64,000 nt of DNA. Source: Bacteroidia bacterium (GTDB lineage Bacteria > Bacteroidota > Bacteroidia > 2-12-FULL-35-15). A model generated the notes under the pieces. That model was not told the DNA's origin. It ran no database searches and saw only the letters and a list, made by a program, of their open reading frames with translations. This document shows, piece after piece, positions 40,366 through 55,038 of this stretch. The stretch covers positions 5,559 to 69,558 of the forward strand of contig JAVHPE010000161.1 of NCBI GenBank assembly GCA_036170475.1. The letters are read 5' to 3'. The translations under genes were made by a program, and so were the position numbers. Within the stretch, counting starts at the first letter, position 1. Every line of letters starts with the position of its first letter.

Positions 40366-40407
40366 AATTTAATGTGCTGATTTATTGATGTGCTAATGTG
40401 CTGATTT

Positions 40408-40854: not shown

Positions 40855-40897
40855 TTTAAATTAAAAATTTATGATTATTTTGCATTAGTAAATTTAA

Positions 40898-41131
40898 TTA
40901 CCCTCCCGAAAAGGGCGGTAATAGTGCCACCGTATCTTTATCATTTAACGAGGTGTTTCCCTGAACAATTTTTTTATTTACCGCCAATAGATAGTTAAAT
41001 GCCACTAATTTAGGATACTGTTCGATAAGTTTTTGATTTAATTCGTTCGTATTTTTTACATCTAAAATTCTTAACTCAGCTTTTCCGGTTATTTCGGCAA
41101 GTTGTCCGAATGCAAGTAAATTAATTTCCAT
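40898..41131 (-). CDS. moaD: Molybdopterin synthase sulfur-carrier subunit MoaD
   Basis: 77 aa, ubiquitin-like, with a C-terminal ...PPFSGG di-glycine. Confidence 0.85.
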   Translation of the reverse strand: MEINLLAFGQLAEITGKAELRILDVKNTNELNQKLIEQYPKLVAFNYLLAVNKKIVQGNTSLNDKDTVALLPPFSGG

Positions 41132-41720: not shown

Positions 41721-41723
41721 AAC

Positions 41724-42458: not shown

Positions 42459-42802
42459 TGTTTATTGTTTTTATTCAACTTGGTTGAAAAAGTTGTTTTG
42501 AATTTTTGAAATTCAATTTCCATCTGATGAAAGTGTTTTAGTAGATTTTCTCCTTCAAATGTTAATATGGTTCCTCCGCCATCACTGCCACCTATCGTTT
42601 TAATTACAATCTTTTTTTTTGCTCCACGATTCATTTCATTGACCATAGTCCATGCCTGACGGTAGGATATTTCTAATGACTGCGCAGCTTTTGAAATAGA
42701 GCCCAGCTCTTTAATTTTCTCCAACAATCTGGCGCGGCCTTTTCCGATTTGTAACCCGGCAACTTCCAACCATAAATTCCCTTTTATTTGAAATAAATTC
42801 AT
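42455..42802 (-). CDS. ModE N-terminal-domain-only winged-HTH regulator (no Mop/TOBE domain)
   Basis: GKGRARLLEKIKELGSISKAAQSLEISYRQAWTMVNEMN...GGSDGGGTILT matches the ModE/LysR-type HTH N-domain. Only 115 aa. Confidence 0.75.
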   Translation of the reverse strand: MNLFQIKGNLWLEVAGLQIGKGRARLLEKIKELGSISKAAQSLEISYRQAWTMVNEMNRGAKKKIVIKTIGGSDGGGTILTFEGENLLKHFHQMEIEFQKFKTTFSTKLNKNNKQ

Positions 42803-42809
42803 AATGATC

Positions 42810-43994
42810 TCAATTTAACAAATGAATTTCCACTAACTCACCTTTTTGAAACTCGGTTTTAGTTTCGTCGAGCTGAATAATGCAATCGGCAAACGCAAAG
42901 GAGTTCATCAGGTATGACTCTTGTGCCTGTAAAGGAATAACTTTGTTCCCTGATAGCAGTCCTTTAAGAAAATAGGTCAATCCTTCTTTTTTACTGTAGG
43001 AGGATGATAAAGGAAGATAAATGCTTTCTTCCTTTTTAGTTTTAAATCCCATCATTTTTTTTAAAGCAGGAGCAATGTATTCGTAATAACAGGTCAATAA
43101 AGCGGATGGATTCCCGGGTAAACCAAATACCATCGTGTTTTTATATTTTCCGAAATAGATTGGCATACCGGGCTTTTGTTTCACTTTATGAAATATACGT
43201 TGCACCCCGCAGTTATCAAATGCTTTAGTCACAAAATCGTAATCGCCTACGGAAACGCCACCGGAAAGAATCATTACGTCACAATCCGGAAGATTATTTT
43301 TTATGATGTTGGTAATTTCCTGTTCGTTATCATCAACACTTAAAATCTTCTTTGGTGTAATGTTTAATGCCTTTAACGCAGCATTTAAACTATATGAATT
43401 GCATTCGTATATTTTGCCCGGTTCCAATGCTTGCCCGGGTTTGTTTAATTCTTTTCCTGTAGTAATTATGCAGACACGGGGAGGAAGGAACACGTGTACC
43501 TTATCAAAACCTAATCCGGATAAAAATCCTGCTGCGCCAGCAGAAATTTTGCATCCTGCTTTCAGGGCAAGACTTCCATTTGTAGTTTGTGATCCTTTCA
43601 GCCGGATGTTTGCACCTTTTTTTAATTGAGTATCATTAATAAAAAGTTGATTTTCCCGAACAGTAACTTTTTCCTGCATTACAACAGTATCGCTACCTTC
43701 AGGTACAGGCGCTCCGGTAAAAATGCGAATGGCTGTATTGGGTAATAGTTTTTTGGTTGGAAAAACACCGGCAGGGATTTCGCCGTCAATTTTAAAAGCC
43801 TGATTCCCTTTCAAGTCATCAAATCTAAAACCATATCCATCCATTGCCGATTGATCAAACGAAGGAACATCAATTGTAGAATAAACGTCCTCTGCTAGTA
43901 TAAGACCGGTTGCATCATATAATGAAATACTAATTGGAGCAAGATGTTTTGTGTTTTCGGTTACTAATTGTTTTGCTTCTGAAACTGAAATCAT
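42810..43994 (-). CDS. moeA: Molybdopterin molybdotransferase MoeA
   Basis: VPSFDQSAMDGYGF, ILSGGVSVGDYDF and GLPGNPSA. Confidence 0.9.
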   Translation of the reverse strand: MISVSEAKQLVTENTKHLAPISISLYDATGLILAEDVYSTIDVPSFDQSAMDGYGFRFDDLKGNQAFKIDGEIPAGVFPTKKLLPNTAIRIFTGAPVPEGSDTVVMQEKVTVRENQLFINDTQLKKGANIRLKGSQTTNGSLALKAGCKISAGAAGFLSGLGFDKVHVFLPPRVCIITTGKELNKPGQALEPGKIYECNSYSLNAALKALNITPKKILSVDDNEQEITNIIKNNLPDCDVMILSGGVSVGDYDFVTKAFDNCGVQRIFHKVKQKPGMPIYFGKYKNTMVFGLPGNPSALLTCYYEYIAPALKKMMGFKTKKEESIYLPLSSSYSKKEGLTYFLKGLLSGNKVIPLQAQESYLMNSFAFADCIIQLDETKTEFQKGELVEIHLLN

Positions 43995-44041
43995 AATTTT
44001 TTTTCGATATGTTAATTAAGTAATAACGGTAGCTAAAAAAA

Positions 44042-45025
44042 TTAGCCGCCTAGTCCTATCATGCTTCTTTCGCGGTTTTCCGTATTTTTTTTTCCCCAGT
44101 TATCGTTTTCATTATTTCCGCCCAGCATTTCATATTTCCCTTGTACACAAGCATGTATTAATGGCTCAATGTCTTTTCCCTGACGCAATGTGTTAAGCAA
44201 ATCAGTTTCCTGTTTCGCAAAGAGGCAGTTATACATTTTGCCATCAGAAGTCAGCCGCATTCGATTACATCCGCTGCAAAAAGGTTCGCTCATTGTGCTG
44301 ATTACAGCAAATGTCCCAAGGTGCTTTGGTACAAAATATTTTTTTGCCGTATCATTTTTTTCATTCAGTAACTTTATATAATGATATTTCGATGAAATTA
44401 CATCTAAAATTTGCTTGTGAGTAAACATTTTATCCTTGCTCCATTCATTTCCTGTAAAGGGCATAAACTCTATAAAACGAACATGCACAGGAGCATCTTT
44501 TGTCCATTCAATGAAGTTTAAGATCTCATCATCATTAAAGTTTTTTATGGCAACCGTATTAACCTTCACATGAAAATCCTTTGACAACAATAAATTAATG
44601 TTGTCCCTAACACGGCTGAACTCATCGCGTTGTGTGATGGAAAGATACTTTTCTTTTTTCATGGTGTCCAAACTGACATTCACTGATTTTACTCCTGCTT
44701 CTTTGAATGTTTCAATAAACTCATGAACAAAAACCCCATTAGTAGTGATGGCAAGTTCTATTGGATATTTTGATAGTCGCTGAATAATTTCTTTTGCATC
44801 TCTCCTTACCAATGGTTCACCGCCGGTAAGACGAATTTTTTTAACTCCTGATTTTACAAAAACAGCAGCAATACGTTCAATTTCATCCGCATTCATGCGT
44901 GGAGCATTTGCGAAAACGCCTTTAGGCAAATCTTCCGGTGTACAGTAACTGCAACGCAGATTACATTTATCTGTGATGGAAATTCTCAGATAATCATGAA
45001 TACGGTTGAATTTGTCTGTTAGCAT
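44042..45025 (-). CDS. moaA: GTP 3',8-cyclase MoaA (radical SAM)
   Basis: CNLRCSYC radical-SAM cluster, C-terminal CSGCNRMRLTSDGKMYNCLF cluster, and a GG tail. Confidence 0.92.
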   Translation of the reverse strand: MLTDKFNRIHDYLRISITDKCNLRCSYCTPEDLPKGVFANAPRMNADEIERIAAVFVKSGVKKIRLTGGEPLVRRDAKEIIQRLSKYPIELAITTNGVFVHEFIETFKEAGVKSVNVSLDTMKKEKYLSITQRDEFSRVRDNINLLLSKDFHVKVNTVAIKNFNDDEILNFIEWTKDAPVHVRFIEFMPFTGNEWSKDKMFTHKQILDVISSKYHYIKLLNEKNDTAKKYFVPKHLGTFAVISTMSEPFCSGCNRMRLTSDGKMYNCLFAKQETDLLNTLRQGKDIEPLIHACVQGKYEMLGGNNENDNWGKKNTENRERSMIGLGG

Positions 45026-45071: not shown

Positions 45072-45803
45072 TTATGCTCTTTTTATTTTTTTAACGCATT
45101 TTTCCAAAATGAATTTATCCAATTTGTCATGTTTTGAAATTGTAATTTTTCGTTTATTTAATATTATAATTTGTTCTTTTTCGAAAAAAGCCAGTGTACG
45201 GCTCATTTCCCCGGCTGAAGTTGCTGCCATATCCGCCATTTCTTGTCTCGTAAGCAAAATATCCAATAAAAAACGATCTTCTCCTGAAGATTTCCCAAAT
45301 TTATCTTTGAGAATCAGCAAAACCATCGCAATTCTAGCTTGGACACAGAATTGATTGAAATTTCTATACTGAATTTCCATACAACTAAGCTGTTGAGCAT
45401 AAAATTCTAAGAGATGCAGAGCAAATTTATGATTTTCTTTGAGTGTTTCCAAAAATAATTCTAATTCGAAAAAACAAAAAGCAGCATTTTCAAGAGCCGC
45501 TGCACTTACTAAATATATTTTTTCTGCAAAACTTCTTATGCCCAACATTTCTCCAGCAGTAGCAATACGAAAAATATTTTGTTTCCCATTTTCAGCGGTA
45601 TTAAAAACTTTTACGCTTCCATCAAAAATAAAACTAACCCCGGTAACCATATTCCCTTCGCGGAAAACAGATTGCCCTTTTTTATACAAAATAAATAATT
45701 TCCGGCTGTCTAAAACAGACTTCCATTTTTGTGAACAATGTTTGTTTATCAAACATTTTGATTGTAAACATGTTTTGCAAAGGGGAGAATTAGAGTTATG
45801 CAT
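45072..45803 (-). CDS. Crp/Fnr-family regulator with N-terminal Cys cluster (FNR-like)
   Basis: N-terminus is CKTCLQSKCLINKHC (C-x2-C-x4-C-x5-C). It also has a cNMP-binding-like beta-roll and a C-terminal HTH TRQEMADMAATSAGEMSRTL. Confidence 0.75.
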   Translation of the reverse strand: MHNSNSPLCKTCLQSKCLINKHCSQKWKSVLDSRKLFILYKKGQSVFREGNMVTGVSFIFDGSVKVFNTAENGKQNIFRIATAGEMLGIRSFAEKIYLVSAAALENAAFCFFELELFLETLKENHKFALHLLEFYAQQLSCMEIQYRNFNQFCVQARIAMVLLILKDKFGKSSGEDRFLLDILLTRQEMADMAATSAGEMSRTLAFFEKEQIIILNKRKITISKHDKLDKFILEKCVKKIKRA

Positions 45804-45811: not shown

Positions 45812-46027
45812 TTACTTACCTGAAGTTGCATTCGTACTTTTTATTTCCTCTGTGACATCATCCATGCCTTTGGAGCTTTTTTTAAATTCATTAATACCCT
45901 TTCCAAATCCTTTCATTAGTTCAGGAATTTTTTTACCGCCGAAAAGCAGAAGAATAATAATTCCAATAATTACTAATTCGGGACCGCCAAGACCCATTAT
46001 TCCTATAATCATTCCTAATGTTATCAT
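45812..46027 (-). CDS. tatA: Twin-arginine translocase subunit TatA/E
   Basis: 71 aa. [37 protein letters not shown] is the canonical TatA TM-hinge-amphipathic helix. Confidence 0.88.
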
Positions 46028-46266: not shown

Positions 46267-48780
46267 TTATGCTTTATAAATTTTTACACAATTTTCTTTG
46301 TGTAAAGCCTGACCACTAATTGGGTCACCTTTGGTAGTACGTAAATTTGCGTCTGAAGAACCGCGTCCTTTCGCCTCTGAGCCAAATGCCCAATGTCCAA
46401 AGCCATGTTGCGAACCTACTACTTCGGGATGAATACCCTCAGTCAATTGTGCTTTCGCTTTCATTTTTCCAAATTTAGATTCTACCCACACCTTATCTCC
46501 GTTTTTAATTCCAAGTTTCTGCGCTGTTTTGGTATTTATTTGCAAAGGATTTTCTGGTTTGAGATCTAATAGCCAACGATTATTTTGGGTGCGTGTGTGT
46601 GTGTGTGTTGATTCCTTCCAATTAATTAAAAAGAGAGGAAATTCTGCATCCGGATACCAATCGCGTTGTTTGTAATTTGGAAATTCGATACAGGCATTAC
46701 CAACGGCATCTTTTTTCCCTTTTAAAACGTTTAAAACAAATTCCGCTTTTCCTGAAGGTGTCATAAAGCCTTTTACTGCTTTTTTTACTTCTTGTCCACT
46801 TTCATCTTTCACCAAAAGATAGGTTCCCATTCGTTTACCTCCATTTTCTTTGGGCTTGTCATAAATGTGTTCAACATCAACACCATCAATTGAAACCTTA
46901 ACTATGGTGGCTGTTTTTAGCTTTTCGGGATCAATAGCCTTTTTATATTTTTCATATTCCGTTTTGCCAGTTGTCCAGACTGCGCCAGGAAGTTTTTTAA
47001 ATTCTGCCAGGGTCATTTTTGGTGCTCCGTTAATAATTTCTTTTGAAAGAAATTCTTCATACCATTTTGTTAAACTTTCTACCCGTTCTCCGGAAATAGG
47101 ATTATTCCAGAAAAAATCTTTTCCTTCTTTATCTTTCAAACCTACCCTTCTTCCCAATTCTACTACAAATTCAGCTTCCGTTGGTTGGCCAAAAATGGGT
47201 TTTACCACAGGTTGCCGCAACGTGAGCGAAGGCCATGTAACCCAATTTCCTGTCCAATCATATCGTTCCAGATAAGTTACACCGGGTATTACAATATCTG
47301 CAAATTGGGCTGTTTCAGATAGGAAAATATCGTTTACTACTACAAATTCAAGATTACTCAATGCCTTTGCAACTGTATCTGTTCCGGGAACTGACATCAA
47401 TAAATTTTGGAAAACAATAATGGCCATTTTAGCTTTATACTGCCCTTTTCCATCAGCAAGTTGCTGTAATATTTCAGGATATACTCCTGATGAATGAAAC
47501 ATCGGATACATTTTGTTATCGTTGGAAAAACGTGGCTTTGATGTTTTTTCAAACTCAATATGCTGATGGTCATTTCCTTTTTTATTTGGAAATATCAAGG
47601 TTCCAGGACGGTCGTATCCACCAACTAATGCATTTAATGCTGCGATTGCAGCTCCACCATTCACTCCATTCGAATGTTGACCGGGACCAGACCATGCATC
47701 CGCCAATGCAGGTTTTGTAGTGGAAAAATCAATTGCAATACGTTCAATAGTAGCGGCAGGAATAGTGGTAATTTTTTCTGCCCATTCTGGTGTTTTGTCT
47801 TTTACATGTTCTGAAAATTCTTTAAAACCGTATGACCATTCGTTAACGAATTTCTCATCGTACAATTTATCCCTGATAATTACATGAGACATTGCCAATG
47901 CCATCGCACCATCGGTAGAAGGACGGATAGGAATCCATTCGTTGGCTTTACGTGCTGTGTATGACATATAAGGGTCAACCACAACTAGCTTAGCTCCTTT
48001 TTCAATTGCACGGGTAATGATTCTCGGAAGTAACGACCATTTTGTTGCTCCAAGCGGATTCCAACCAAAAAGTAAAATATATTTTGATTGTATGGCATCA
48101 ATTAATGGTCTTTCATCACCTACAACCGATTTGAATGCTGCCTTTCTTGTGGTATCACATAAACCGGAATGGTTGTTATAATTTGGTGTACCGTATAAAT
48201 CGCAAAAATCGCTTTGTATGTGTGTAAAACTATGGTCTTCCGAAAACCACAGCAAAGATTCCGGTGTTCCGTCATCTTTCAATTTTTTCATTTTAGCTGC
48301 AATAGTACTATATGCCTCTTCCCAAGAAATTTCTACAAATTTAGGATCTTCTCCAATTCCTTTTTTTGGATTGGTACGTTTAACGGGTTTTGCCAAACGA
48401 TCCGGATCATACAGTGTCATCATTCCTGCATTTCCTTTTGGGCACATTACAGAACCGCCTTCCAAAGCGCAATTTTTTTCAAAATCATCAGAAATATTGC
48501 TGAATCCAATTGGGTTATAGGAGTTAGGTTTAATCCGAATAAGTTTTCCATCCACCACTTGACATTTTATTCCCGTTTGTCCGCCACACATATTGCAGCA
48601 ACTTGGGATCCATTCTCCGGCAGTAAAGTCATATCGTTTATCAACTTCCTCTGCAAATTTTTCGGGGCTGAGTGCCAAGGCTTTAGAAAACCATGATGAT
48701 CCGAGAAGAAGACCTCCTGTTCCCAAAGCGGCTTTTGCTAAAAAACTTTTACGGGTTTCTTTATTACTATTATTATCCAT
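46267..48780 (-). CDS. Periplasmic molybdopterin (Mo/W-bisPGD, DMSO-reductase-family) oxidoreductase catalytic subunit, Psr/Phs/Arr/Ttr-like, substrate unknown
   Basis: Tat-like signal ETRKSFLAKAALGTGGLLLGS. N-terminal FS0 cluster Cys residues are CCNMCGGQTGIKC...MCPKG. Candidate Mo-ligand motif is NNHSGLCDTTRK. Conserved TPEWAEKITTIPAATIERIA. C-terminal THTHTRTQNNRWL and domain IV. Confidence 0.85.
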   Translation of the reverse strand: MDNNSNKETRKSFLAKAALGTGGLLLGSSWFSKALALSPEKFAEEVDKRYDFTAGEWIPSCCNMCGGQTGIKCQVVDGKLIRIKPNSYNPIGFSNISDDFEKNCALEGGSVMCPKGNAGMMTLYDPDRLAKPVKRTNPKKGIGEDPKFVEISWEEAYSTIAAKMKKLKDDGTPESLLWFSEDHSFTHIQSDFCDLYGTPNYNNHSGLCDTTRKAAFKSVVGDERPLIDAIQSKYILLFGWNPLGATKWSLLPRIITRAIEKGAKLVVVDPYMSYTARKANEWIPIRPSTDGAMALAMSHVIIRDKLYDEKFVNEWSYGFKEFSEHVKDKTPEWAEKITTIPAATIERIAIDFSTTKPALADAWSGPGQHSNGVNGGAAIAALNALVGGYDRPGTLIFPNKKGNDHQHIEFEKTSKPRFSNDNKMYPMFHSSGVYPEILQQLADGKGQYKAKMAIIVFQNLLMSVPGTDTVAKALSNLEFVVVNDIFLSETAQFADIVIPGVTYLERYDWTGNWVTWPSLTLRQPVVKPIFGQPTEAEFVVELGRRVGLKDKEGKDFFWNNPISGERVESLTKWYEEFLSKEIINGAPKMTLAEFKKLPGAVWTTGKTEYEKYKKAIDPEKLKTATIVKVSIDGVDVEHIYDKPKENGGKRMGTYLLVKDESGQEVKKAVKGFMTPSGKAEFVLNVLKGKKDAVGNACIEFPNYKQRDWYPDAEFPLFLINWKESTHTHTRTQNNRWLLDLKPENPLQINTKTAQKLGIKNGDKVWVESKFGKMKAKAQLTEGIHPEVVGSQHGFGHWAFGSEAKGRGSSDANLRTTKGDPISGQALHKENCVKIYKA

Positions 48781-48839
48781 GATATTTATGATTTAAGTTT
48801 CTTTTGTTTTTATTGTTATAGAATTAATTCATGCATGCA

Positions 48840-49736
48840 TTACGTTAAATAATACACACTTGGATTGGTGCCTTTTTCTTCTTTAAGACGAAAATGTTTT
48901 CTTGTTTTAAGAAGTTCCTGCAAATTATCACCAGTAACAAGGCATTTTGCATTAGGGTCTTTTAAATTACCAAAATGAATTGCTCTTGCCATGCAAGTAC
49001 GTGAACATGCTGTTGGTTCACGATACTCTCCGTTTTCATCCTGAAGATGTAAGCACAACATACATTTCCTTGACAGGGTAACCGGAGCTTTTTCTTTTTC
49101 AGCATCACGTATGCCATACTTTGCATTAAATTCACTTGATGGAATAAGATTAAATGGATTTTTAGGGTCGGCAATGTAATTTTTACCGACATCTATTACA
49201 CGCGCTCCATAAGGGCATGCTTTAACACAATCACCTGCACCAACGCATTTATCATAATTAGTTATTACAATTCCATCGTCCCGTTTATATGTAGCATTAT
49301 TAGGGTCATTTAGTAGAGTTGTTGCATTATTAGGACAAACCGGTATGCAAGGCGGATTTTCGCAGTGCATACATGGGTGGGTATAAGAATTGAAAGTAGT
49401 TTTTGGATATGCTCCTTTTTCCTCTTCTATAAAACGATTGTAAAAAACACCCGGAGGAGTTTTGTTTTCATTTTTGCAGGCTACAACACATGCTTTGCAA
49501 GCGACACAACGTTTCAGGTCAATGATAAAACCCCATTGTGCACCTTTTTTACCAGTAGTGGACTGAACTTTTGGACTATTTGCAGATGCCGCAAATGGAA
49601 TTGCAGATAGTAATGCGAAGCCTCCAATTTTTTTCAAAAAATCAGCCCGACTTGTTCCACTCATTTCAGTTTCTTTTTCAAGAAAGGCATCTAATTTTTC
49701 AATACCTTCTTCGTTTTTATTTTCGTTGGGTTCCAT
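48840..49736 (-). CDS. 4Fe-4S dicluster-type electron-transfer subunit (PsrB/DmsB/TtrB-like) with its own signal peptide
   Basis: Cluster motifs are CVACKACVVACKNEN, CMHCENPPCIPVCP, CVGAGDCVKACPYGA and CMLCLH...CSRTCMARAIHFG. N-terminus is SRADFLKKIGGFALLSAIPFAASA. An alternative start is ATG 49664. Confidence 0.85.
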   Translation of the reverse strand: MEPNENKNEEGIEKLDAFLEKETEMSGTSRADFLKKIGGFALLSAIPFAASANSPKVQSTTGKKGAQWGFIIDLKRCVACKACVVACKNENKTPPGVFYNRFIEEEKGAYPKTTFNSYTHPCMHCENPPCIPVCPNNATTLLNDPNNATYKRDDGIVITNYDKCVGAGDCVKACPYGARVIDVGKNYIADPKNPFNLIPSSEFNAKYGIRDAEKEKAPVTLSRKCMLCLHLQDENGEYREPTACSRTCMARAIHFGNLKDPNAKCLVTGDNLQELLKTRKHFRLKEEKGTNPSVYYLT

Positions 49737-49770
49737 ATTTTTCTTTTATTTTTTTATGTTAGAAAAAGTA

Positions 49771-50976
49771 TTATTTAAATACATAGTAGAAGGTCAAGCG
49801 CACAACCATATCAGATTTTCTTTCATAATATTTTGCCCGGTCTGAAGCTTTTGTAGCATCATATGACGAAGGTTTGGCTCTCATATCGGTGTAAGAATTC
49901 ATCCAGATATTAGGTATGAAATGCACATTGTTAGTGGGTGTATAATCCAAACCAACAGTTAAAAACCCTTCATTATAATATGTTGCAATGGATGGCATTT
50001 TGTATCCTTTTTGGTAGCCCTTATTATAGATATCATAACGGGCAAAAGCATATAGTTTATCTTTTAAAATAGTGCCTCTTGCAAAAATGCTTAACCCCAT
50101 CGGTTTGTAATCAAGGGTATCTTTATTTTTGCCGGTAGCAATAAACCCTGTTGTATCTATTACCTGATTTTTTTGAGTTTGAGATACATATTCCACTCCT
50201 ACTGTGAACAATTTGTGTTGGTATGCTATAAATCCTTCTAAACTTCTGATACTTTTAAGGACGTGTTTCGAGCCTCCGGTTGGTATGTAAAGCTGATCCT
50301 CATAGTCATAATTTAAAGCCAAAAGAACTTTTGCGTCTAACAAACTGGCGTCAAATCCGGCATAAGCTTTTTCTAAGTTGTTGTCTTCAGGTTTACTACC
50401 TTTTCCTGTCGCCCACATAACATGATATCCCACTTTGTTTTTTCCTTCTGTCTCCAATTTGAATAAGCTTGAAATTCGTATTCCAAGATCGTTGGAAGGA
50501 AGTAGTTTTCTTGCATCACCAAAGACTTTTTCTACTGAACGATAGGCCCATGTTTTTTCTGCAAGTGAAAAACTGGTGGTGCCTACCTGTCCGATATAAA
50601 GTGTATGTTTTGGTAGAAAATTTTTCCATTCCAGGTTACATGATTTAATTAATGAGGTTCTGTCTCCTCCGGCAGTCAGTATTCCATCACTTGCTTCGAA
50701 AAGCAAATGTGCGGTAAAGTTCTGGGATATGCCGTAATCGTAACCAAGATAAATTCTTCGCAGCGAAATGCTGGTTTGGGATTTTTTTGTTTTAGCAAAT
50801 TCAGACTCACCAAAATTGATAATGGTGTCGCCTCCTATTTTATTATAAAAATCGCCAAAGGCTAATCCCCATAGTTTGCCACTTGGTTTAAATTCTTCCT
50901 TTGGTTTCTCCTGTGCGTTTATCTGGATTGCAAACATTACCAGTAAAAGGCTTGATAAAAATGTTTTCGTTTTCAT
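49771..50976 (-). CDS. Outer-membrane porin-like beta-barrel (possibly OprO/P-type anion porin); first gene of the Mo-enzyme operon
   Basis: Signal peptide MKTKTFLSSLLLVMFAIQINAQ. Alternating amphipathic strands. SLRRIYLGYDYGISQNFTAHLLFE resembles the F-x-hR-R-A-R-L block of phosphate-selective porins. Aromatic-rich C-terminal strand LTFYYVFK. Confidence 0.55.
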   Translation of the reverse strand: MKTKTFLSSLLLVMFAIQINAQEKPKEEFKPSGKLWGLAFGDFYNKIGGDTIINFGESEFAKTKKSQTSISLRRIYLGYDYGISQNFTAHLLFEASDGILTAGGDRTSLIKSCNLEWKNFLPKHTLYIGQVGTTSFSLAEKTWAYRSVEKVFGDARKLLPSNDLGIRISSLFKLETEGKNKVGYHVMWATGKGSKPEDNNLEKAYAGFDASLLDAKVLLALNYDYEDQLYIPTGGSKHVLKSIRSLEGFIAYQHKLFTVGVEYVSQTQKNQVIDTTGFIATGKNKDTLDYKPMGLSIFARGTILKDKLYAFARYDIYNKGYQKGYKMPSIATYYNEGFLTVGLDYTPTNNVHFIPNIWMNSYTDMRAKPSSYDATKASDRAKYYERKSDMVVRLTFYYVFK

Positions 50977-51038: not shown

Positions 51039-51054
51039 GGCAAGATTGACACCA
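51039..51054 (-). promoter_or_regulatory. Candidate sigma-54 (-24/-12) promoter for the porin/Fe-S/Mo operon
   Basis: Minus-sense TGGTGTcaatcTTGCC gives GG-N10-GC with correct spacing versus consensus TGGCAC-N5-TTGC. It lies 63-78 nt upstream of ATG 50976, immediately downstream of a sigma-54 activator gene. Confidence 0.55.
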
Positions 51055-51138
51055 ATCATTGTATAAAAAAAATAATTTTTACAAAGCCCTACTATTACAG
51101 CGATTTACGCTTATTTGATAGAAAATACGTCAATAAAA

Positions 51139-51243: not shown

Positions 51244-52602
51244 TTAACTGTTAATCGAATGCTTTTCCATTTTTGAGCGTAGCGTTGAGAGTGGAATTCC
51301 AAGCATTTCAGCGGCTTTGGATTTATTGTTTTTATTTTTTTCTAAAGCAAACTTAATAGAGGAAATTTCCACTTCAGATAATGTTTGTTCAAGATTTTTT
51401 GTACCAATAATAGAGCACAAATCAGCAAACTTGTAGTTTCTAATTTCCGATGGCACATGCTGTATCTCTATTTTTCCGGCATCAGCAATAATTACCATCC
51501 TTTCTGATATGTTTTTTAATTCTCTTACATTCCCCCGCCAACTATAATCATTTAAGAGTTTATATACTTCGTTTGAAATTACAAGTTCTTTCCCTTGAGA
51601 ATACTTGTTTACATAATGGTCAAGTAATTTTTTAATGTCTTTTTTTCGCTCTCTAAGAGGTTGAAGATAAATCGGAAAAACATTTAATCTATAAAAAAGG
51701 TCTTCACGAAATTTACCTTCATTAACCATCAGGCGAAGATCTTTTTTAGTAGATACTATTAAGCGAATATTAATTTTAATGGGTATTGAACTTCCAACTC
51801 GTTCAATTTCTTTTTCCTGCAACACTCTTAAAAGTTTTACTTGTAAATCTAAAGGAATATCATCTATGTCATCAAGGTATAAAGTGCCTCCGTTAGCCGA
51901 TTCAAAACGGCCTTTTTTATCTTGATCAGCACCTGTGAATGCACCTTTAACATGTCCAAAAAGTTCGCTTTCAAATATTTCCCGTGATAAAATGGCACAA
52001 CTTACTTTTATCAAAGGTTGTTTCTTACGAGCGCTATTATAATGAATAATATTTGTTACATGTTCTTTTCCTGTTCCTGTTTCACCGTTGATTAATACAG
52101 TTGTGTCCTTTTCTGCAATTAATTTTATTAAGTCAAAAAGCTCTTTATTAGTTTCATTTTCTCCTATATATGCTGATAAATCATACTTGCTTTCAATTTG
52201 ATTTCTAAGTACTTTATTTTCCTTTTTTACAGAATTCAATTCATTGATACGTTCAATGATCAACAAAATTTCTTCCAACTTAAATGGTTTTGTTATGTAA
52301 TCATAAGCTCCGTTTTTCATTGCTTCTACAGCATTATCAACTGTTCCAAACGCTGTCATTACAACAACGGTTATTTCCGGTTTTGTTTTTTTTATTTTGG
52401 AAAGCAACTCTAATCCATCCATCCCAGGCATTTTCAAATCTGTAATTATTATTTCAGGACAATATTCTTCCATGCTGATAAATACTGATTCTGCATTAGA
52501 AAATTCACGAACATCAAATCCTTGATCACGCAAATCATCAGCGAGTGTTACCCGAATTATCCTTTCATCTTCAACAACTGCAATTTTAGTTTTATTTTCC
52601 AT
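51244..52602 (-). CDS. Sigma-54-dependent response regulator (NtrC/AioR-type: REC + AAA+ + Fis-HTH)
   Basis: REC domain (phospho-Asp context IIITDLKMPGMDG), Walker A GETGTGKE, GAFTGA sigma-54 contact loop, and a C-terminal HTH AAEMLGIPLSTLRSKMEKH. Confidence 0.92.
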   Translation of the reverse strand: MENKTKIAVVEDERIIRVTLADDLRDQGFDVREFSNAESVFISMEEYCPEIIITDLKMPGMDGLELLSKIKKTKPEITVVVMTAFGTVDNAVEAMKNGAYDYITKPFKLEEILLIIERINELNSVKKENKVLRNQIESKYDLSAYIGENETNKELFDLIKLIAEKDTTVLINGETGTGKEHVTNIIHYNSARKKQPLIKVSCAILSREIFESELFGHVKGAFTGADQDKKGRFESANGGTLYLDDIDDIPLDLQVKLLRVLQEKEIERVGSSIPIKINIRLIVSTKKDLRLMVNEGKFREDLFYRLNVFPIYLQPLRERKKDIKKLLDHYVNKYSQGKELVISNEVYKLLNDYSWRGNVRELKNISERMVIIADAGKIEIQHVPSEIRNYKFADLCSIIGTKNLEQTLSEVEISSIKFALEKNKNNKSKAAEMLGIPLSTLRSKMEKHSINS

Positions 52603-54124
52603 TTAGGAGTATATTTTCGTTTTTAATAGTAAGAACAACAGTAAATGTCATCCCATCTTTTTCATTTCGTTTTGCTGATATTTTTCCTCCATGTTGCTCA
52701 ACTATTCTATAACAAACGGCTAAACCAAGACCAGTTCCCTGTCGTATTTTTTTAAATGTATAAAAAGGATCAAATATTTTTTGAAGCTTTTCAGGCGGGA
52801 TACCAATTCCATTATCAGAAATAACTAATATCAAATAATCATCCTTGGCGGTTAAATTAATTTCAATTTTACCTTTCAAATCAGGATCATCTATTTTCTT
52901 TTCATCAATTGCATCAATACTATTTAAAAGAAGATTGAGAACTAACTGCTCAATATGGTTAATACTCGCCTTAGTGAGTGGTATATTCAGAGAACTATTT
53001 TTAATTATTGAGATTTTGGATTTTTCCAATTGGAAAGAAATTAACATTAAAACATTTTCAATTAGTATTAAAAGATTTACATCTGAAAATACAAGCTCTT
53101 GCTTTCGACTAAAATTTAAAAGCCCCCCAACTACATTTTCAATTTTATTAATCGCCTCCGATATCATTTCAAAATACTTAATATTCTGATTTACGTTCTC
53201 CGGTTCTTTTGAAATTCTTCGAATACAACTTTTTATTCCGGCAATAGGATTATTTATTTCATGGGCAACACCAGCTGAAAGCGTTCCCAATGAAGCCATT
53301 TTTTCAGTTTGTACAAATGAATCCTGTGTTTCCTGTAGTTCAACATAAGTATCCTTCAATCGCAGAACCATTTCATTATATCTGAAAATTAATACGTCTA
53401 TTTCGTCTTCTATTCCTAATACATTTTTCCATTTTGCAACTCGTTTCAGACGAAATTGCGCATTGTCTTCTTTATTACTTGGAATATTAAAAGACTTTAA
53501 ATTAAATTTCTCAGAAGTTTTTGTAATATACTTTATTGGTGTGGTAATAATAAAAGCAAAAAATAATGCTGCACTAATTCCAAAAAAAAGAAAAAGCACA
53601 ACCATTTTTATAAAAATCGCATTTGAAGTTGAAATGTTTTTAGTGTAGTTGTCTTCAAATAAACCCACACGCACAACACCTAATGTCCCATTTAAAACAG
53701 GTATTGCAATATCTCTTATCTCTTTTGATGTTTTGTTATCTTTTAATCTAACTGTATTACTACTTTTTTTATTTATAAGAAAGTTTGCCTCAATAAGTTT
53801 TGAAGGAACTGAATTCTTAAATGTATGTGCTAAAACATTGTTTTTACTATCTAAAATGAACACATAAGCGAAATTGGAATCTATCCTGATCTGGTCGGTA
53901 ACTAAATTATTTAAGGCAGCCAAATCATCATATAAAATTGGCTCAACACTCCTTTCTGCAATTATTTTGGCGGTTGTTAAACCGTGATGAGTAAGCTCTG
54001 ATTCAAACAGTTGATAAACTGATTTATTTAAAAGATATAAATTGGTTGAACCAAAAACAGCTACTATCGCAGCAATTGCTATTGAAAATTTCCAAAATAA
54101 GGGGAGGGAGAAATGTCTTTTCAT
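52592..54124 (-). CDS. Sensor histidine kinase (2 TM helices flanking a ~140-aa periplasmic domain, HisKA, HATPase_c)
   Basis: H-box GVAHEINNP, N-box LLLNSIDA, and G-boxes DNGIGI and GTGLGLAV. Overlaps the RR gene by 11 nt. Confidence 0.9.
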   Translation of the reverse strand: MKRHFSLPLFWKFSIAIAAIVAVFGSTNLYLLNKSVYQLFESELTHHGLTTAKIIAERSVEPILYDDLAALNNLVTDQIRIDSNFAYVFILDSKNNVLAHTFKNSVPSKLIEANFLINKKSSNTVRLKDNKTSKEIRDIAIPVLNGTLGVVRVGLFEDNYTKNISTSNAIFIKMVVLFLFFGISAALFFAFIITTPIKYITKTSEKFNLKSFNIPSNKEDNAQFRLKRVAKWKNVLGIEDEIDVLIFRYNEMVLRLKDTYVELQETQDSFVQTEKMASLGTLSAGVAHEINNPIAGIKSCIRRISKEPENVNQNIKYFEMISEAINKIENVVGGLLNFSRKQELVFSDVNLLILIENVLMLISFQLEKSKISIIKNSSLNIPLTKASINHIEQLVLNLLLNSIDAIDEKKIDDPDLKGKIEINLTAKDDYLILVISDNGIGIPPEKLQKIFDPFYTFKKIRQGTGLGLAVCYRIVEQHGGKISAKRNEKDGMTFTVVLTIKNENILLNGK

Positions 54125-55038
54125 TCTTTTATAAATCGAATCATTTCTTCAATATGATTATAATCAGCTTCTTTCCCTTCTACAAATTTGTCTATTGATA
54201 ATTTATTAAGTATTTTTTTTCCCTCTGTATCCTCATGTAAGGTAGTTAGTATTTTTTTTAATTTTTCCTTCGTTTCTTTCTTCAAATTTGCCGGAACTAC
54301 AACAGGGGATATTGCAAAATCTTCTGATTTTTCAATAATTTTAATCTGTGTTACCGATTCAGGATGATGCTCTGCCATGTATTCATAAATCAAACCGTCA
54401 ACAGAAGCTCCATCAATTACTCCTTTTGAAATAAGTTGCATCGAAATATCGTGTGCGTAAGAAAACACAGTTGAGCCAAAAAATTCGCCACTCTTAAATC
54501 CTAACTCTTTAACTCGTTTATCCGCGTATAATTTCCCGGAATTCGACAGAGGATCGGTATATGCGAAAGTTTTGCCTTTTAATTCTATAAATTTAGTGAT
54601 AGATGATGTTTTAGGAACAATGATATATGACTGGTAAAAAGGTTTGCCATAGCAAACAGGAACTGCGAGTAATTCCAAATTACAATTCTTCTTATCCATC
54701 ACATAAGCTCCAGTGCAAATAAAGGCGAGATCTACTTCATTTTGCGCAAGCAATTGATCTACTTCTTTGTAGGTTTTTCGTTGTTTGAACTCAATTTTAT
54801 AATCAAGTTTTTTAGAGATATAATTAAAAAGTTCCTCATAAAAAGTAAATGTTTCTCTTGGAGAGATTATAGCAGAGACCGCAACATTTAGTTTTTGAAT
54901 AGTATCCTTTTTTGTGGTTTGTGATTTTTTTATATTTTGATCTGAGAAATCAATAATTTTAGTGTCTCCGTTGTTTTGGTTTGGTTGCCCGCAACTATAC
55001 GCTAAAATGATGCAACAAAAAGTAAATAAAAGTCTCAT
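54121..55038 (-). CDS. PhnD-type (phosphonate/oxyanion) periplasmic substrate-binding lipoprotein, AioX/ArxX-like position
   Basis: Lipobox LAYSCGQ. FAYTDPLSNSGKLY matches the PhnD 'dp-S-x-SG' ligand loop. ATGA overlap with the kinase gene. Confidence 0.75.
   Translation of the reverse strand: MRLLFTFCCIILAYSCGQPNQNNGDTKIIDFSDQNIKKSQTTKKDTIQKLNVAVSAIISPRETFTFYEELFNYISKKLDYKIEFKQRKTYKEVDQLLAQNEVDLAFICTGAYVMDKKNCNLELLAVPVCYGKPFYQSYIIVPKTSSITKFIELKGKTFAYTDPLSNSGKLYADKRVKELGFKSGEFFGSTVFSYAHDISMQLISKGVIDGASVDGLIYEYMAEHHPESVTQIKIIEKSEDFAISPVVVPANLKKETKEKLKKILTTLHEDTEGKKILNKLSIDKFVEGKEADYNHIEEMIRFIKE

What the first reader, a model, noticed from the sequence alone, without database searches (positions are those of the whole stretch)
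46267..50976. Porin - Fe-S - Mo subunit operon with degenerate twin-arginine motifs on both soluble subunits
The Mo subunit signal reads T-R-K-S-F-L-A-K (RK instead of RR). The Fe-S subunit reads S-R-A-D-F-L-K-K (RA), followed by a hydrophobic core and an A-S-A cleavage-type site.

In most two-subunit Tat substrates only the catalytic subunit carries the signal and the Fe-S partner hitch-hikes. TtrB is a known exception.

A single-Arg motif on the Fe-S subunit raises three possibilities: Sec export, an uncleaved signal-anchor tethering the complex to the membrane (which would partly substitute for the missing anchor subunit), or a vestigial signal.

The first gene is a 401-aa barrel with a block resembling the R-R-x-R-L motif region of phosphate/anion-selective porins. 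That would give substrate-specific outer-membrane entry.
Basis: partly seen in the sequence, partly recalled or inferred. Interest (0 to 1): 0.68.

Follow-up and report, generated by a model that had tools for sequence, protein, structure and literature searches.

The report
Anchor-less periplasmic molybdoenzyme operon with porin
The three genes encode an outer-membrane anion channel and a two-subunit molybdenum enzyme from a widespread, unstudied family that may act on arsenic oxyanions. This copy has lost its membrane anchor, altered the iron-sulfur cluster that used to face the anchor, and carries unusual but conserved export signals.

Summary
Three minus-strand genes encode a 401-aa barrel, a 298-aa Fe-S subunit (B) with S-R-A-D-F-L-K-K, and an 837-aa Mo subunit (A) with T-R-K-S-F-L-A-K.

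Neither motif is an error. RK occurs in 28 of the 120 best A homologues and in all close relatives. The single Arg in B recurs in the six closest B orthologues.

The family's usual gene order is B, NrfD anchor, A (67 of 80 genome loci). The window and its closest B orthologues (one seen in its locus) lack the anchor, although relatives whose A is 77-82% identical keep it.

Anchor loss coincides with loss of one Cys in B: 13 of 14 anchor-less loci, 0 of 62 anchored ones. This predicts a [3Fe-4S] distal cluster, as in perchlorate reductase PcrB. B also lost a TPR domain and a lipobox Cys, which argues for a soluble enzyme rather than a signal-anchor.

The barrel is a remote relative of Porin_O_P, with no direct Pfam hit.

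The upstream sensor protein resembles the arsenate and arsenite sensors ArrX and AioX, with all seven pocket residues conserved. Arsenic-resistance genes flank the operon in other genomes. The substrate is unproven.

The parts
54121..55038 (-). Periplasmic sensor-type binding protein (X), of the AioX/ArxX/ArrX subfamily within the PhnD-like fold
   Evidence: Pfam PF12974, E 1.6e-56. Best solved relatives are ArrX (E 1.4e-47), AioX (1e-34), PtxB (3e-19) and PhnD (6e-9). Residues Y90, C108, Y135, S165, S167, H196 and D214 match the seven AioX pocket residues with identical spacing.
52592..54124 (-). Sensor histidine kinase (S)
   Evidence: sCache_3_2, HisKA and HATPase_c domains. Its start overlaps the X gene's stop, and its stop overlaps the R gene's start.
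51244..52602 (-). Sigma-54-dependent response regulator (R)
   Evidence: Response_reg, Sigma54_activat and HTH_8 domains. This is the same class as AioR and ArxR (PMC5908839).
51141..51177 (-). Inverted repeat TGTGCGATA-N19-TATCGCACA, a candidate upstream activator site for the regulator
   Evidence: Read directly. The same repeat with the same spacing lies upstream of the barrel gene in relative L090. Its function is inferred.
51039..51055 (-). TTGGTGTCAATCTTGCC, a candidate sigma-54 -24/-12 promoter with GG-N10-GC spacing
   Evidence: L090 has TTGGTTTTAGTATTGCC at the same place. A stricter consensus search (TGGCAC-N5-TTGC, up to 1 mismatch) did not pick it up, so this is a weak, conservation-based call.
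49771..50976 (-). Outer-membrane 16-strand beta-barrel, a remote relative of phosphate-selective porins O/P, with a Sec-type signal (…QINA/QEK)
   Evidence: No Pfam, NCBIfam or PDB sequence hit. 8 of 60 family members hit PF07396. hhalign against Porin_O_P gives 96.4%. AlphaFold pLDDT is 87.6. Foldseek finds OprP at TM 0.60. Homologues are linked to the same operon in 15 other loci.
48840..49736 (-). Fe-S subunit B: four cysteine groups (4+4+3+4 Cys) and an N-terminal Tat-like signal with a single Arg
   Evidence: Fer4_11 and related domains. The best NCBIfam matches are DsrO, TtrB, NrfC and ArrB, all below their cut-offs. PDB matches are PsrB (E 9e-30) and ArrB.
49581..49652 (-). B signal: S-R-A-D-F-L-K-K followed by the core IGGFALLSAIPFAASA
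   Evidence: Conserved in P0241, P0242, P0243, L091 and L001.
49212..49247 (-). B cysteine group III, C-V-G-A-G-D-C-V-K-A-C-P: the second Cys is replaced by Ala167, predicting a [3Fe-4S] distal cluster (FS4)
   Evidence: It aligns with PcrB 'CKGAQAC' and EbdB 'CKGHRHC', whereas PsrB and ArrB keep the Cys. Anchored relatives have CIGCRYC.
46267..48780 (-). Mo-bisPGD catalytic subunit A of the Psr/Phs-like lineage, with an RK Tat signal, the FS0 motif C61-C62-x2-C65…C113, and Cys208 as the likely Mo ligand
   Evidence: PF00384 and PF01568. PhsA scores 393 bits against a cut-off of 694; ArrA scores 244 against 1600. PsrA (2vpw) gives E 7e-75, and the alignment places Cys208 on its Cys ligand. Invariant residues are listed.
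48733..48756 (-). A signal motif T-R-K-S-F-L-A-K
   Evidence: RK is present in 28 of the 120 best homologues and in the closest relatives P0002, P0003 and L093.
45812..46027 (-). tatA (TatA/E family, 71-aa ORF; translation may start at the internal Met)
   Evidence: The identical product is annotated PF02416. A homologue lies in the same position in L081, and tatA homologues are linked to the operon in about 10 other loci.
45072..45803 (-). Crp/Fnr-family regulator with an N-terminal C9-x2-C12-x4-C17-x5-C23 cluster, possibly oxygen-sensing
   Evidence: cNMP_binding and HTH_Crp_2 domains. FnrL is the best NCBIfam match, E 4e-15. It is conserved downstream of the operon in L001 and L081.
39454..45025 (-). 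Molybdenum cofactor gene block: moaA, moeA, a ModE-like repressor domain, a TauE-family permease, mobA, moaE-like, and a moaC/moaB-like fusion
   Evidence: The assignments for 40408-40854 and 39454-40365 were made by eye and were not tested with a profile search.

Best explanation
**What it is.** The finding sits inside a roughly 15.6-kb single-strand module (39454-55038):
- an ArrX/AioX-like periplasmic sensor protein, a histidine kinase and a sigma-54 response regulator
- a sigma-54-type promoter
- the porin, Fe-S subunit B, Mo subunit A and tatA
- an Fnr-like regulator
- molybdenum cofactor genes

**The enzyme.** It belongs to a very widespread, uncharacterised branch of the Psr/Phs-like complex iron-sulfur molybdoenzymes. 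The ancestral gene order of this branch is B, NrfD quinol anchor, A.

**What changed in this lineage.** A small Bacteroidota sub-clade that includes the window converted the enzyme to a soluble periplasmic heterodimer through four changes:
1. It deleted the anchor gene.
2. B lost its N-terminal TPR domain.
3. B's lipobox-like Cys became a signal-peptidase-I type A-S-A site.
4. B lost the Cys and Tyr of the C-I-G-C-R-Y-C motif that faces the anchor. The distal cluster should therefore be [3Fe-4S].

**How it most likely works (inferred).**
- A and B receive their cofactors in the cytoplasm.
- They are exported folded by the Tat pathway, helped by the operon's own TatA.
- Export uses signals in which the second Arg is Lys (A) or Ala (B). 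These are lineage-conserved, functional variants rather than decay.
- B's weak signal is tolerable because B probably travels in complex with A.
- In the periplasm the enzyme exchanges electrons through the [3Fe-4S] cluster with a soluble carrier that is not encoded nearby, instead of with quinol.
- The substrate is a small oxyanion that enters through the OprO/P-like porin and induces the operon through the sensor protein.
- Arsenate or arsenite is the best-supported candidate, but it is unproven.
For: **Family and architecture.**
- 2595 homologues of A were found. The best 120 are 56-82% identical across many phyla.
- 67 of 80 genome loci have an NrfD gene (PF03916) between B and A.
- The closest relatives, L081 (82%) and L001 (77%), keep it. 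The window does not.
- The anchor-less sub-clade is real:
  - P0241, P0242 and P0243 are 91%, 76% and 72% identical to B and show the same features.
  - L093 shows barrel, B, 57 nt, then A.

**Cys loss tracks anchor loss.**
- Anchored loci: 62 with the Cys, 0 without.
- Anchor-less loci: 1 with the Cys, 13 without.
- Fisher p = 9e-14.
- The anchor-less loci fall in at least 4 separate groups on both the A and B trees.
- The position aligns with the Ala of PcrB and the His of EbdB.
- CIGCRYC matches DmsB Cys102/Tyr104, cited as anchor-interface residues.

**Tat export.**
- tatA lies in the operon.
- tatA or tatC is linked in other loci.
- RK occurs in 28 of 120 A homologues.
- The DsrO, TtrB and NrfC profiles align from the SRADFLKK motif onward.
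- The motif and core are conserved between orthologues.
- The twin Arg is not mechanistically essential for Tat (PMC7317946).

**Soluble rather than tethered.** The ASA/TSA/TSA/SNS sites contrast with SGC/AGC in anchored relatives. Core hydrophobicity is unchanged.

**Regulation.** The palindrome and the TTGG-N8-TTGCC element are conserved in L090.

**Porin.**
-.
- 35 of 80 loci carry a barrel gene of one of three kinds in the operon.
- 11 of the 13 other anchor-less loci do so. L011 and L056 have none called.

**Arsenic lead.**
- ArrX and AioX are the best solved relatives of the sensor protein.
- All seven pocket residues are conserved here and in 14 other linked sensor proteins.
- ACR3, ArsR, ArsP and ArsC-like genes lie within 8 kb in about 12 other loci.
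Against: - No experiment exists on any member of the family, and no signal-peptide predictor was available.
- In E. coli even Arg-to-Lys changes are poorly tolerated (PMC7317946). An R-A motif may therefore be non-functional on its own.
- No tatC, TorD-like chaperone, cytochrome c or ars gene lies in the window.
- The electron partner is unknown. An NrfD gene could exist elsewhere in the genome.
- The [3Fe-4S] assignment rests on motif analogy only.
- The correlation statistic is not phylogenetically corrected, and the trees are simple neighbour-joining trees.
- ArrX-like sensors also accompany Sre-like enzymes in archaea, and pocket residues alone do not set ligand specificity (PMC5908839). 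The arsenic assignment is therefore only a lead.
- Foldseek does not separate OprP from general porins.
Confidence: 0.6

Rival explanations
1. B's N-terminus is an uncleaved signal-anchor that tethers the A-B dimer to the cytoplasmic membrane. It would partly replace the lost NrfD subunit.
For: - Anchored relatives appear membrane-tethered at this segment. In L001, L091 and P0245 a TPR domain precedes the motif and a lipobox-like S-G-C or A-G-C follows the core.
- A single-Arg signal with a 16-residue core could remain in the membrane.
Against: - All four members of the anchor-less Bacteroidota clade have small-x-small sites at the end of the core and have lost the Cys.
- The core contains Gly-Gly and Pro and is no more hydrophobic than in RR orthologues.
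- The TPR domain that would sit on the cytoplasmic side is deleted.
- Loss of the anchor-facing Cys and Tyr fits an enzyme that has left the membrane.
Confidence: 0.13
2. The complex is still membrane-bound and quinol-coupled. An NrfD-type subunit is encoded elsewhere in the genome, outside the 64-kb window.
For: - Only 64 kb could be inspected.
- L010 has an NrfD-like fragment several kb upstream of an otherwise anchor-less operon.
Against: - In 62 of 62 anchored loci, B keeps C-I-G-C-R-Y-C (L012 and L040 have minor variants that keep the Cys). The window and 12 of 13 other anchor-less loci have lost the Cys.
- The C gene lies between B and A in both relatives whose A is 77-82% identical to the window's (L081, L001).
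Confidence: 0.1
3. The operon is decaying after loss of its anchor. The degenerate RK and RA motifs and the missing Cys would then be early signs of pseudogenisation.
For: - Several features are lost at once: the anchor, the TPR domain, one Cys and the second Arg.
- B sits on a long branch in the tree.
- One orthologue, P0241, also lacks a Cys in group I.
- The A gene in L093 is called in two pieces on a contig with 2.4x coverage.
Against: - All three ORFs are intact, and identical in 8 contigs.
- The same architecture is kept in orthologues down to 72% identity, with the other 15 cluster cysteines retained.
- The same combination arose in at least 3 other lineages and makes up 41 of the 120 closest B homologues.
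- The promoter elements are conserved.
Confidence: 0.05
4. B is exported unfolded by Sec, because its single-Arg signal no longer engages Tat.
For: - The R-A motif lacks the twin Arg.
- Many Tat-like signals can engage Sec when fused to Sec-compatible passengers (PMC7317946).
Against: - B needs four Fe-S clusters, which are inserted in the cytoplasm. This is established knowledge of Tat substrates (PMC7317946).
- F-L-K-K and the weakly hydrophobic Gly-rich core are conserved.
- tatA is in the operon.
- B can travel with A.
Confidence: 0.03

Closest known systems
Polysulfide/thiosulfate reductase PsrABC and PhsABC (Thermus thermophilus PsrABC, PDB 2vpw)
   Same: - It is the closest solved structure for both A (E 7e-75) and B (E 9e-30).
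- A has a Cys-ligated Mo-bisPGD site plus an FS0 cluster, and B is a four-cluster ferredoxin.
- The family's anchored form has an NrfD-type subunit.
   Different: - The gene order is B-C-A, not A-B-C.
- A scores only 393 bits against the PhsA cut-off of 694, and has an insert of about 170 residues and a C-C-x2-C FS0 motif.
- B carries its own Tat-type signal, which Thermus PsrB lacks.
- The window copy has no C subunit and only three Cys in group III.
Tetrathionate reductase TtrBCA with TtrSR (Salmonella), and selenate reductase SrdBCA (Bacillus selenatarsenatis)
   Same: - The B-C-A gene order matches.
- B has its own Tat signal, and TtrB naturally lacks one of the two Arg residues (Hinsley 2001, cited in PMC7317946).
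- Sensing uses a PhnD-fold periplasmic domain.
   Different: - TtrA matches only the C-terminal domain of A (95 bits against a cut-off of 1750).
- TtrB's variant is K-R, not R-x.
- TtrS has the binding domain fused to the kinase, whereas here it is a separate protein.
Respiratory arsenate reductase ArrAB with ArrXSR, and arsenite oxidases Arx and Aio with their XSR modules
   Same: - A separate X-type binding protein, a kinase and (as for Aio and Arx) a sigma-54 regulator sit upstream.
- The sensor protein is closest to ArrX and then AioX, with all pocket residues conserved.
- Shewanella ArrAB is likewise a soluble periplasmic A-B dimer without an anchor (own knowledge).
- ars genes are frequent neighbours.
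   Different: - A is not an ArrA or ArxA: it scores 244 bits against a cut-off of 1600.
- ArrB keeps all four Cys in group III.
- No porin is known in arr, arx or aio operons.
Perchlorate reductase PcrAB and ethylbenzene dehydrogenase EbdABC (soluble periplasmic type II DMSO-reductase enzymes)
   Same: - B's group III motif has a non-Cys residue at the same position (PcrB C-K-G-A-Q-A-C, EbdB C-K-G-H-R-H-C).
- These enzymes are soluble and periplasmic and have no quinol-oxidising anchor.
   Different: - Their catalytic subunits are Asp-ligated NarG-type proteins and unrelated at family level.
- The resemblance in B is convergent, since the window's B branches among Cys-containing anchored relatives.
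Phosphate- and pyrophosphate-selective porins OprP and OprO (Pfam PF07396)
   Same: - A 16-strand barrel of similar size, with TM 0.58-0.60.
- Remote profile-level homology.
- A conserved basic block (R73, R74) aligns with the F-R-x-R-R block of Porin_O_P.
- Bona fide PF07396 porins occupy the same operon position in other phyla.
   Different: - The window protein itself is not detected by PF07396.
- General porins (OmpT, PorB, Omp32) score equally well by fold.
- Selectivity is untested.

Membership tests
Tat (twin-arginine) signal peptide | Consecutive Arg-Arg in the S/T-R-R-x-F-L-K motif | tested here: not met
   A has R-K and B has R-A. The variants are conserved in orthologues.
Tat (twin-arginine) signal peptide | The rest of the motif (hydrophobic residue at +2, Leu, Lys), a weakly hydrophobic Gly/Ser-rich core, and an A-x-A site | tested here: met
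   A reads S-F-L-A-K, then AALGTGGLLLGSSW, then A-L-A. B reads D-F-L-K-K, then IGGFALLSAIPFA, then A-S-A. B's core hydrophobicity equals that of RR orthologues.
Tat (twin-arginine) signal peptide | Export depends on TatABC | not testable with these tools
   Only circumstantial: tatA is in the operon, and tatA or tatC is linked in other loci.
Porin_O_P (PF07396) | Match to the family HMM above the gathering score | tested here: not met
   No hit even at E = 10. 8 of 60 homologues hit at E <= 0.01, best 6.6e-6.
Porin_O_P (PF07396) | Homology detectable at profile level, and a 16-strand barrel fold | tested here: met
   hhalign gives 96.4%, E 1.1e-9, over 275 columns. The AlphaFold model has pLDDT 87.6 and 16 strands. 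OprP gives TM 0.60 and OprO 0.58.
Porin_O_P (PF07396) | Anion or phosphate selectivity through an arginine ladder | not testable with these tools
   Only the conserved basic residues are seen (R73, R74, K111, R146, K150, R393).
Psr/Phs-type complex iron-sulfur molybdoenzyme (A-B-C) | Catalytic subunit with Mo-bisPGD domains, an FS0 cluster and a Cys Mo ligand | tested here: met
   PF00384, PF01568 and PF04879. Cys208 aligns with the PsrA ligand. FS0 is the variant C61-C62-x2-C65…C113, and all four are invariant.
Psr/Phs-type complex iron-sulfur molybdoenzyme (A-B-C) | Four-cluster subunit with four complete Cys groups | tested here: not met
   Groups I, II and IV are complete. Group III is C-x2-A-x2-C-x3-C-P.
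Psr/Phs-type complex iron-sulfur molybdoenzyme (A-B-C) | NrfD-type membrane anchor encoded with A and B | tested here: not met
   B and A are 59 nt apart, and there is no NrfD homologue in 64 kb. The anchor is present in 67 of 80 related loci.
PhsA, ArrA and TtrA equivalogs (NCBIfam NF012032, NF041714, NF011567) | Score above the curated cut-off | tested here: not met
   Scores against cut-offs are 393/694, 244/1600 and 95/1750.
AioX/ArxX/ArrX arsenic-oxyanion sensor proteins | Closest to ArrX/AioX rather than PhnD/PtxB, with the seven pocket residues including the Cys that PhnD lacks | tested here: met
   E-values are 1.4e-47 (ArrX), 1e-34 (AioX), 3e-19 (PtxB) and 6e-9 (PhnD). Seven of seven residues match with identical spacing.
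AioX/ArxX/ArrX arsenic-oxyanion sensor proteins | Binds arsenate or arsenite at physiological concentration | not testable with these tools
   PMC5908839 notes that pocket residues alone do not determine which oxyanion is bound.

The most novel reading that the evidence does not exclude
The whole family, in both its anchored B-NrfD-A form and its soluble porin-B-A form, may be a previously unrecognised lineage of dissimilatory arsenic-oxyanion oxidoreductases. It would be distinct from Arr, Arx and Aio. It is widespread in groundwater and soil bacteria of many phyla and is missed by arrA- and aioA-based surveys. Within it, repeated loss of the quinol anchor would be mechanistically coupled to conversion of the distal [4Fe-4S] cluster to [3Fe-4S], re-wiring the enzyme to soluble electron carriers.
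Probability: 0.3. Interest if true: 0.85.

Novelty: new variant of a known kind. Interest (0 to 1): 0.6.

Why it matters
**Tat targeting.** The locus offers natural, conserved Tat-type signals with R-K and R-x on the two subunits of one cofactor-laden enzyme, next to a dedicated tatA. This is a ready-made system for asking how far the twin-arginine rule can bend, and whether two-signal complexes tolerate one weak signal.

**Enzyme evolution.** The strict co-occurrence of anchor loss with loss of the DmsB-Cys102-equivalent, in several independent lineages, is a clean comparative example. It shows how a membrane-bound respiratory enzyme becomes a soluble one. It also predicts a [3Fe-4S] cluster that can be checked by EPR.

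**Environmental relevance.** The enzyme family is large: 2595 homologues were scored, mostly from groundwater metagenome-assembled genomes. It is highly conserved and has no assigned substrate. The ArrX/AioX-type sensor, the phosphate-porin-like channel and the neighbouring ars genes point to arsenic oxyanions. If that holds, the family would add an overlooked player to arsenic mobilisation in aquifers.

Tried and rejected
**Searches that led nowhere.**
- Pfam (E up to 10), NCBIfam, and PDB sequence and profile searches gave nothing useful for the barrel itself. Only family-level and fold-level tests worked.
- tblastn for NrfD and a scan for CxxCH cytochromes in the window were both negative.
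- Pfam on the larger ORFs in the rest of the window found housekeeping genes only.
- A search for the strict sigma-54 consensus TGGCAC-N5-TTGC, with up to 1 mismatch, found two sites elsewhere, no more than chance. The operon's candidate promoter was found only by reading the sequence and comparing it with L090.
- Literature searches for a description of this family found no characterised member. Reviews mention only unnamed Cys-ligated 'PsrA/PhsA/SrrA-like' lineages from metagenomes.

**Ideas tested and rejected.**
- Extra hydrophobicity compensating for the single Arg in B: rejected (1.88 against 1.87 +/- 0.27).
- A sequencing or assembly error: rejected (and the orthologues).
- Translation of B starting later: rejected. 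The upstream D-x-F-L-E-K-E stretch is conserved at protein level, and P0243 has no internal Met near the motif.
- Membership of ArrA/ArxA, TtrA/SrdA or PhsA: rejected on curated cut-offs.

**Not run.** TatP, SignalP and TMHMM were not available. The search of protein representatives and the second structure job were not used, because they would not have changed the conclusions.

Full report
**1. The observation**

One search lists three co-directional minus-strand ORFs at exactly the stated coordinates:
- a 401-aa protein (49771-50976)
- a 298-aa protein (48840-49736)
- an 837-aa protein (46267-48780)

Pfam identifies the last as a molybdopterin oxidoreductase (PF00384, PF01568, weak PF04879). 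The middle one is a multi-cluster ferredoxin (Fer4_11 and relatives). The first has no hit.

The motifs are as described:
- A residues 9-16 are T-R-K-S-F-L-A-K.
- B residues 29-36 are S-R-A-D-F-L-K-K. The core IGGFALLSAIPFAASA follows.

B and A are separated by 59 nt. The same arrangement, base for base at the protein level, is present on 8 independently assembled contigs from different sequencing runs. It is therefore not an assembly artefact.

**2. The enzyme family**

- The A subunit has 2595 homologues at E <= 1e-20. The best 120 are 56-82% identical, although they come from many phyla: Planctomycetota, Omnitrophota, Methylomirabilota/Rokubacteria, Nitrospirota, Chloroflexota, Elusimicrobiota, Acidobacteriota and Bdellovibrionota. 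Nearly all are metagenome-assembled genomes from groundwater and soil.
- No curated equivalog claims it. PhsA scores 393 bits against a cut-off of 694, ArrA 244 against 1600, and TtrA 95 against 1750.
- The closest solved structures are Thermus PsrA (E 7e-75) and PsrB (E 9e-30), then Shewanella ArrA and ArrB.
- The PsrA alignment puts Cys208 on the Mo ligand.
- The FS0 motif is unusual. C61, C62, C65 and C113 are invariant, and the usual third Cys is Thr, Ser or Cys.
- I found no paper that characterises a member.

**3. Gene order and the missing anchor**

- In 67 of 80 genome loci, a protein of about 400 aa lies between B and A. It is an NrfD-family anchor (PF03916, E 1e-46). The ancestral order is therefore B-C-A, as in ttrBCA and srdBCA.
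- The two relatives closest to the window's A have the anchor: L081 at 82% and L001 at 77%. The window does not, and no NrfD homologue exists anywhere in its 64 kb.
- The loss is shared by a small Bacteroidota sub-clade:
  - B orthologues P0241, P0242 and P0243 are 91%, 76% and 72% identical and have the same features.
  - Contig L093 shows barrel, B, 57 nt, then A.
- Thirteen further loci from other phyla also lack the anchor.
- On neighbour-joining trees of A and of B, these fall into at least four separate groups. The window's B nests among anchored Bacteroidota and Planctomycetota sequences, on a long branch.

**4. A correlated change in the Fe-S subunit**

- All 62 anchored loci with a readable B keep the second Cys of the third cysteine group. 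Sixty read C-I-G-C-R-Y-C, and L012 and L040 have close variants.
- Thirteen of 14 anchor-less loci, including the window, have replaced that Cys with Ala, Leu, Ile, Thr, Lys or Tyr. They have also lost the Arg-Tyr pair (window C-V-G-A-G-D-C).
- Fisher p is 9e-14, not corrected for phylogeny.
- Among the 120 closest B homologues in the protein database, 41 are of this non-Cys type.
- In HMMER alignments the window's Ala167 lies on the Ala of perchlorate reductase PcrB (C-K-G-A-Q-A-C) and the His of ethylbenzene dehydrogenase EbdB. PsrB and ArrB keep the Cys.
- From established knowledge of these proteins:
  - This position is the one whose absence gives the [3Fe-4S] FS4 cluster of NarH-type subunits (FS4 is stated as [3Fe-4S] in PMC8301774).
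  - It corresponds to DmsB Cys102. C-I-G-C-R-Y-C is the DmsB motif, and Cys102 and Tyr104 are cited as anchor-interface residues (citing Cheng 2005).
- I infer that the cluster that used to face the quinol anchor is [3Fe-4S] in the window's enzyme, and that it now serves a soluble partner. This is a prediction, not a demonstration.

**5. The signals**

*Subunit A.*
- 89 of the 120 best homologues have RR and 28 have RK.
- All close Bacteroidota relatives have S/T-R-K-S-F-L-A-K.

*Subunit B.*
- Almost every family member has its own Tat-type signal, so a signal on B is the rule in this class and not an exception.
- RR dominates and RK is common. A single Arg (R-A, R-S, R-G, R-E, R-I, R-V, R-D) occurs in roughly 7%.
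- The six closest B orthologues, down to 58% identity (P0241-P0245 and L001), all have a single Arg: SRADFLKK, SRADFLKK, SREGFLKK, NRADFLKS, SRGDFLRS and SRSEFLKT.
- Between the window and P0241, the 22 residues TSRADFLKKIGGFALLSAIPFA are identical while both flanks diverge. This argues against a vestigial signal.
- The NCBIfam profiles of DsrO, TtrB and NrfC align from residue 28-29 onward, that is, from the motif.
- B's core is no more hydrophobic than in RR orthologues (1.88 against 1.87 +/- 0.27). The hydrophobic compensation described for Arg-less signals (PMC7317946) is therefore not seen.

*Other evidence on export.*
- A 71-aa TatA-family gene lies directly downstream of A in the window (45812-46027) and in L081.
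- tatA or tatC is linked to the operon in more than ten other loci.
- B has 15 cluster-binding cysteines, so Sec export of an unfolded protein is implausible.

I conclude that both subunits are Tat substrates. They probably move as one complex, which would relax selection on B's second Arg. That last step is inference.

**6. Tethered or soluble?**

- Anchored Bacteroidota relatives (L001, L091/P0244, P0245) have a B of 408-417 aa. A TPR domain of about 130 aa precedes the motif in the same frame, and the core ends in a lipobox-like S-G-C or A-G-C.
- The same TPR-B fusion, with a canonical RR, occurs in Planctomycetota (P0250, P0257).
- The anchor-less clade has deleted the TPR domain but kept the short acidic linker. 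It has replaced the Cys with small-x-small sites: ASA, TSA, TSA and SNS.
Cleavage was not tested.

**7. The barrel**

- The window protein has no Pfam hit even at E = 10 and no PDB sequence hit.
- Its family has 443 homologues, mostly Bacteroidota 'hypothetical proteins'. Eight of 60 members reach PF07396 at E <= 0.01.
- A profile-profile comparison with bona fide Porin_O_P proteins from orthologous operons of other phyla gives 96.4% probability over 275 columns. It aligns the invariant F-R-R-I-Y-L-G block with the F-R-x-R-R block of Porin_O_P.
- The AlphaFold model (pLDDT 87.6) is a 16-strand barrel.
- Foldseek returns OprP at TM 0.60 and OprO at 0.58. OmpT, PorB and Omp32 score similarly.
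- Barrel genes of three kinds accompany the operon in 35 of 80 loci: this family, true Porin_O_P, and a BBP2-like type. They accompany it in 11 of the 13 other anchor-less loci; none is called in L011 or L056.
- A dedicated anion channel is a reasonable reading. Selectivity is untested.

**8. Regulation and the substrate lead**

*Regulators.*
- Upstream, on the same strand, lie a PhnD-fold binding protein, a histidine kinase and a sigma-54 response regulator.
- Between the regulator gene and the barrel gene lie an inverted repeat (TGTGCGATA-N19-TATCGCACA) and TTGG-N8-TTGCC with -24/-12 spacing. Both are conserved in L090.
- Downstream, an Fnr-like regulator carries an N-terminal four-Cys cluster.

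*The sensor protein.*
- Its best solved relatives are the arsenate sensor ArrX (E 1.4e-47) and the arsenite sensor AioX (1e-34). These are far ahead of PtxB (3e-19) and PhnD (6e-9).
- The seven AioX pocket residues named in PMC5908839 (Y88, C106, Y131, S161, S163, H192, D210) correspond to Y90, C108, Y135, S165, S167, H196 and D214, with identical spacing.
- They are conserved in all 15 binding proteins linked to this enzyme family.

*Neighbouring arsenic genes in other loci, within 8 kb.*
- ACR3 arsenite efflux genes in 5 loci (TIGR00832, 377 bits against a cut-off of 283)
- ArsR-family regulators in 7 loci
- ArsP-like permeases in 4 loci
- an ArsC-like gene in L001

None of these lies in the window.

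*Caveats.* ArrXSR-like modules also accompany Sre-like enzymes in archaea, and pocket residues do not fix the ligand (PMC5908839). I therefore treat arsenate or arsenite as the leading candidate substrate, at about 0.3-0.4, and not as a finding.

**9. Verdict**

The degenerate motifs are conserved, probably functional Tat variants.

The more informative features were not in the finding:
- the operon's own tatA
- the derived and recurrent loss of the NrfD anchor
- its tight coupling to a predicted [4Fe-4S]-to-[3Fe-4S] change
- the ArrX/AioX-type sensor

The locus is a new variant of a known kind of enzyme, within a large family that has no assigned function.

Noticed in passing
window 45812-46027 (-): A 71-aa TatA/E-family gene lies directly downstream of the Mo subunit gene. 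The same arrangement is seen in the 82% relative L081.
   Followed up: yes
window 49212-49247 (-); loci L006, L010, L011, L014, L019, L024, L037, L038, L039, L043, L059, L068, L093: The second Cys of cysteine group III in the Fe-S subunit is replaced wherever the NrfD anchor gene is missing (13 of 14 loci). It is never replaced where the anchor is present (0 of 62). L056 lacks the anchor but keeps the Cys, and may be an intermediate.
   Followed up: yes
L001 5445-6674; L091 5514-6740; proteins P0245, P0250, P0257, P0273, P0288, P0350: In several phyla the Fe-S subunit is fused in frame to an N-terminal TPR domain of about 130 aa that sits upstream of the Tat motif. A folded domain in front of a Tat signal is odd. 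It might act as a built-in proofreading chaperone, since neither of the two TPR-fusion loci examined (L001, L091) has a TorD-like gene; this was not checked for the other fusions. Alternatively it could make the signal an internal membrane anchor.
   Followed up: partly
window 48571-48603 (-); alignment A1: The FS0 cluster motif of the Mo subunit is C-C-x2-C-G-G-Q-T. The usual third Cys is replaced by Thr, Ser or Cys, and an extra invariant Cys sits next to the first. This may be a signature of the family.
   Followed up: no
window 51141-51177 and 51039-51055 (-); L090 about 3975-4011 and 4097-4113: A conserved palindrome (TGTGCGATA-N19-TATCGCACA) and TTGG-N8-TTGCC lie upstream of the barrel gene. 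They are candidates for the activator site and the sigma-54 promoter.
   Followed up: partly
window 41724-42458 (-); L012, L016, L025, L037, L045, L057, L069: A TauE/SafE-family permease is embedded among the molybdenum cofactor genes, next to a ModE-like repressor domain. It recurs near the operon in 7 other loci. Its role is unknown; it could transport an anion or molybdate.
   Followed up: no
window 45072-45803 (-); L001 10608-11369; L081 4555-5316: The Crp/Fnr-family regulator downstream of the operon has an N-terminal C-x2-C-x4-C-x5-C cluster. This is conserved in L001 and suggests oxygen-responsive control.
   Followed up: no
L036 14456-17067; L027, L028, L067, L072, L006, L073, L074, L075, L057, L091, L001: Arsenic-resistance genes (ACR3, ArsR, ArsP-like, ArsC-like) lie within 8 kb of the operon in about 12 other loci. 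A small CMD/AhpD-like gene recurs in 10 loci.
   Followed up: partly
proteins P0063-P0120 and B subunits of L002, L003, L005, L039, L052, L062, L070: In many lineages the Tat signal of A and/or B ends in a lipobox (for example A-S-G-C or L-G-G-C). This suggests Tat-exported lipoproteins, a second way of tethering the enzyme.
   Followed up: no
L074-L078, L042 (Chloroflexota): The B subunits of these loci start directly at the first cluster motif and have no signal peptide. Their A subunits keep RR signals, which fits hitch-hiking of B.
   Followed up: no
protein P0241 (91% orthologue of B): The second Cys of group I is Gly (C-V-A-G-K-A-C). This may be a sequencing error on a 1.7-kb contig, or a second cluster change.
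   Followed up: no
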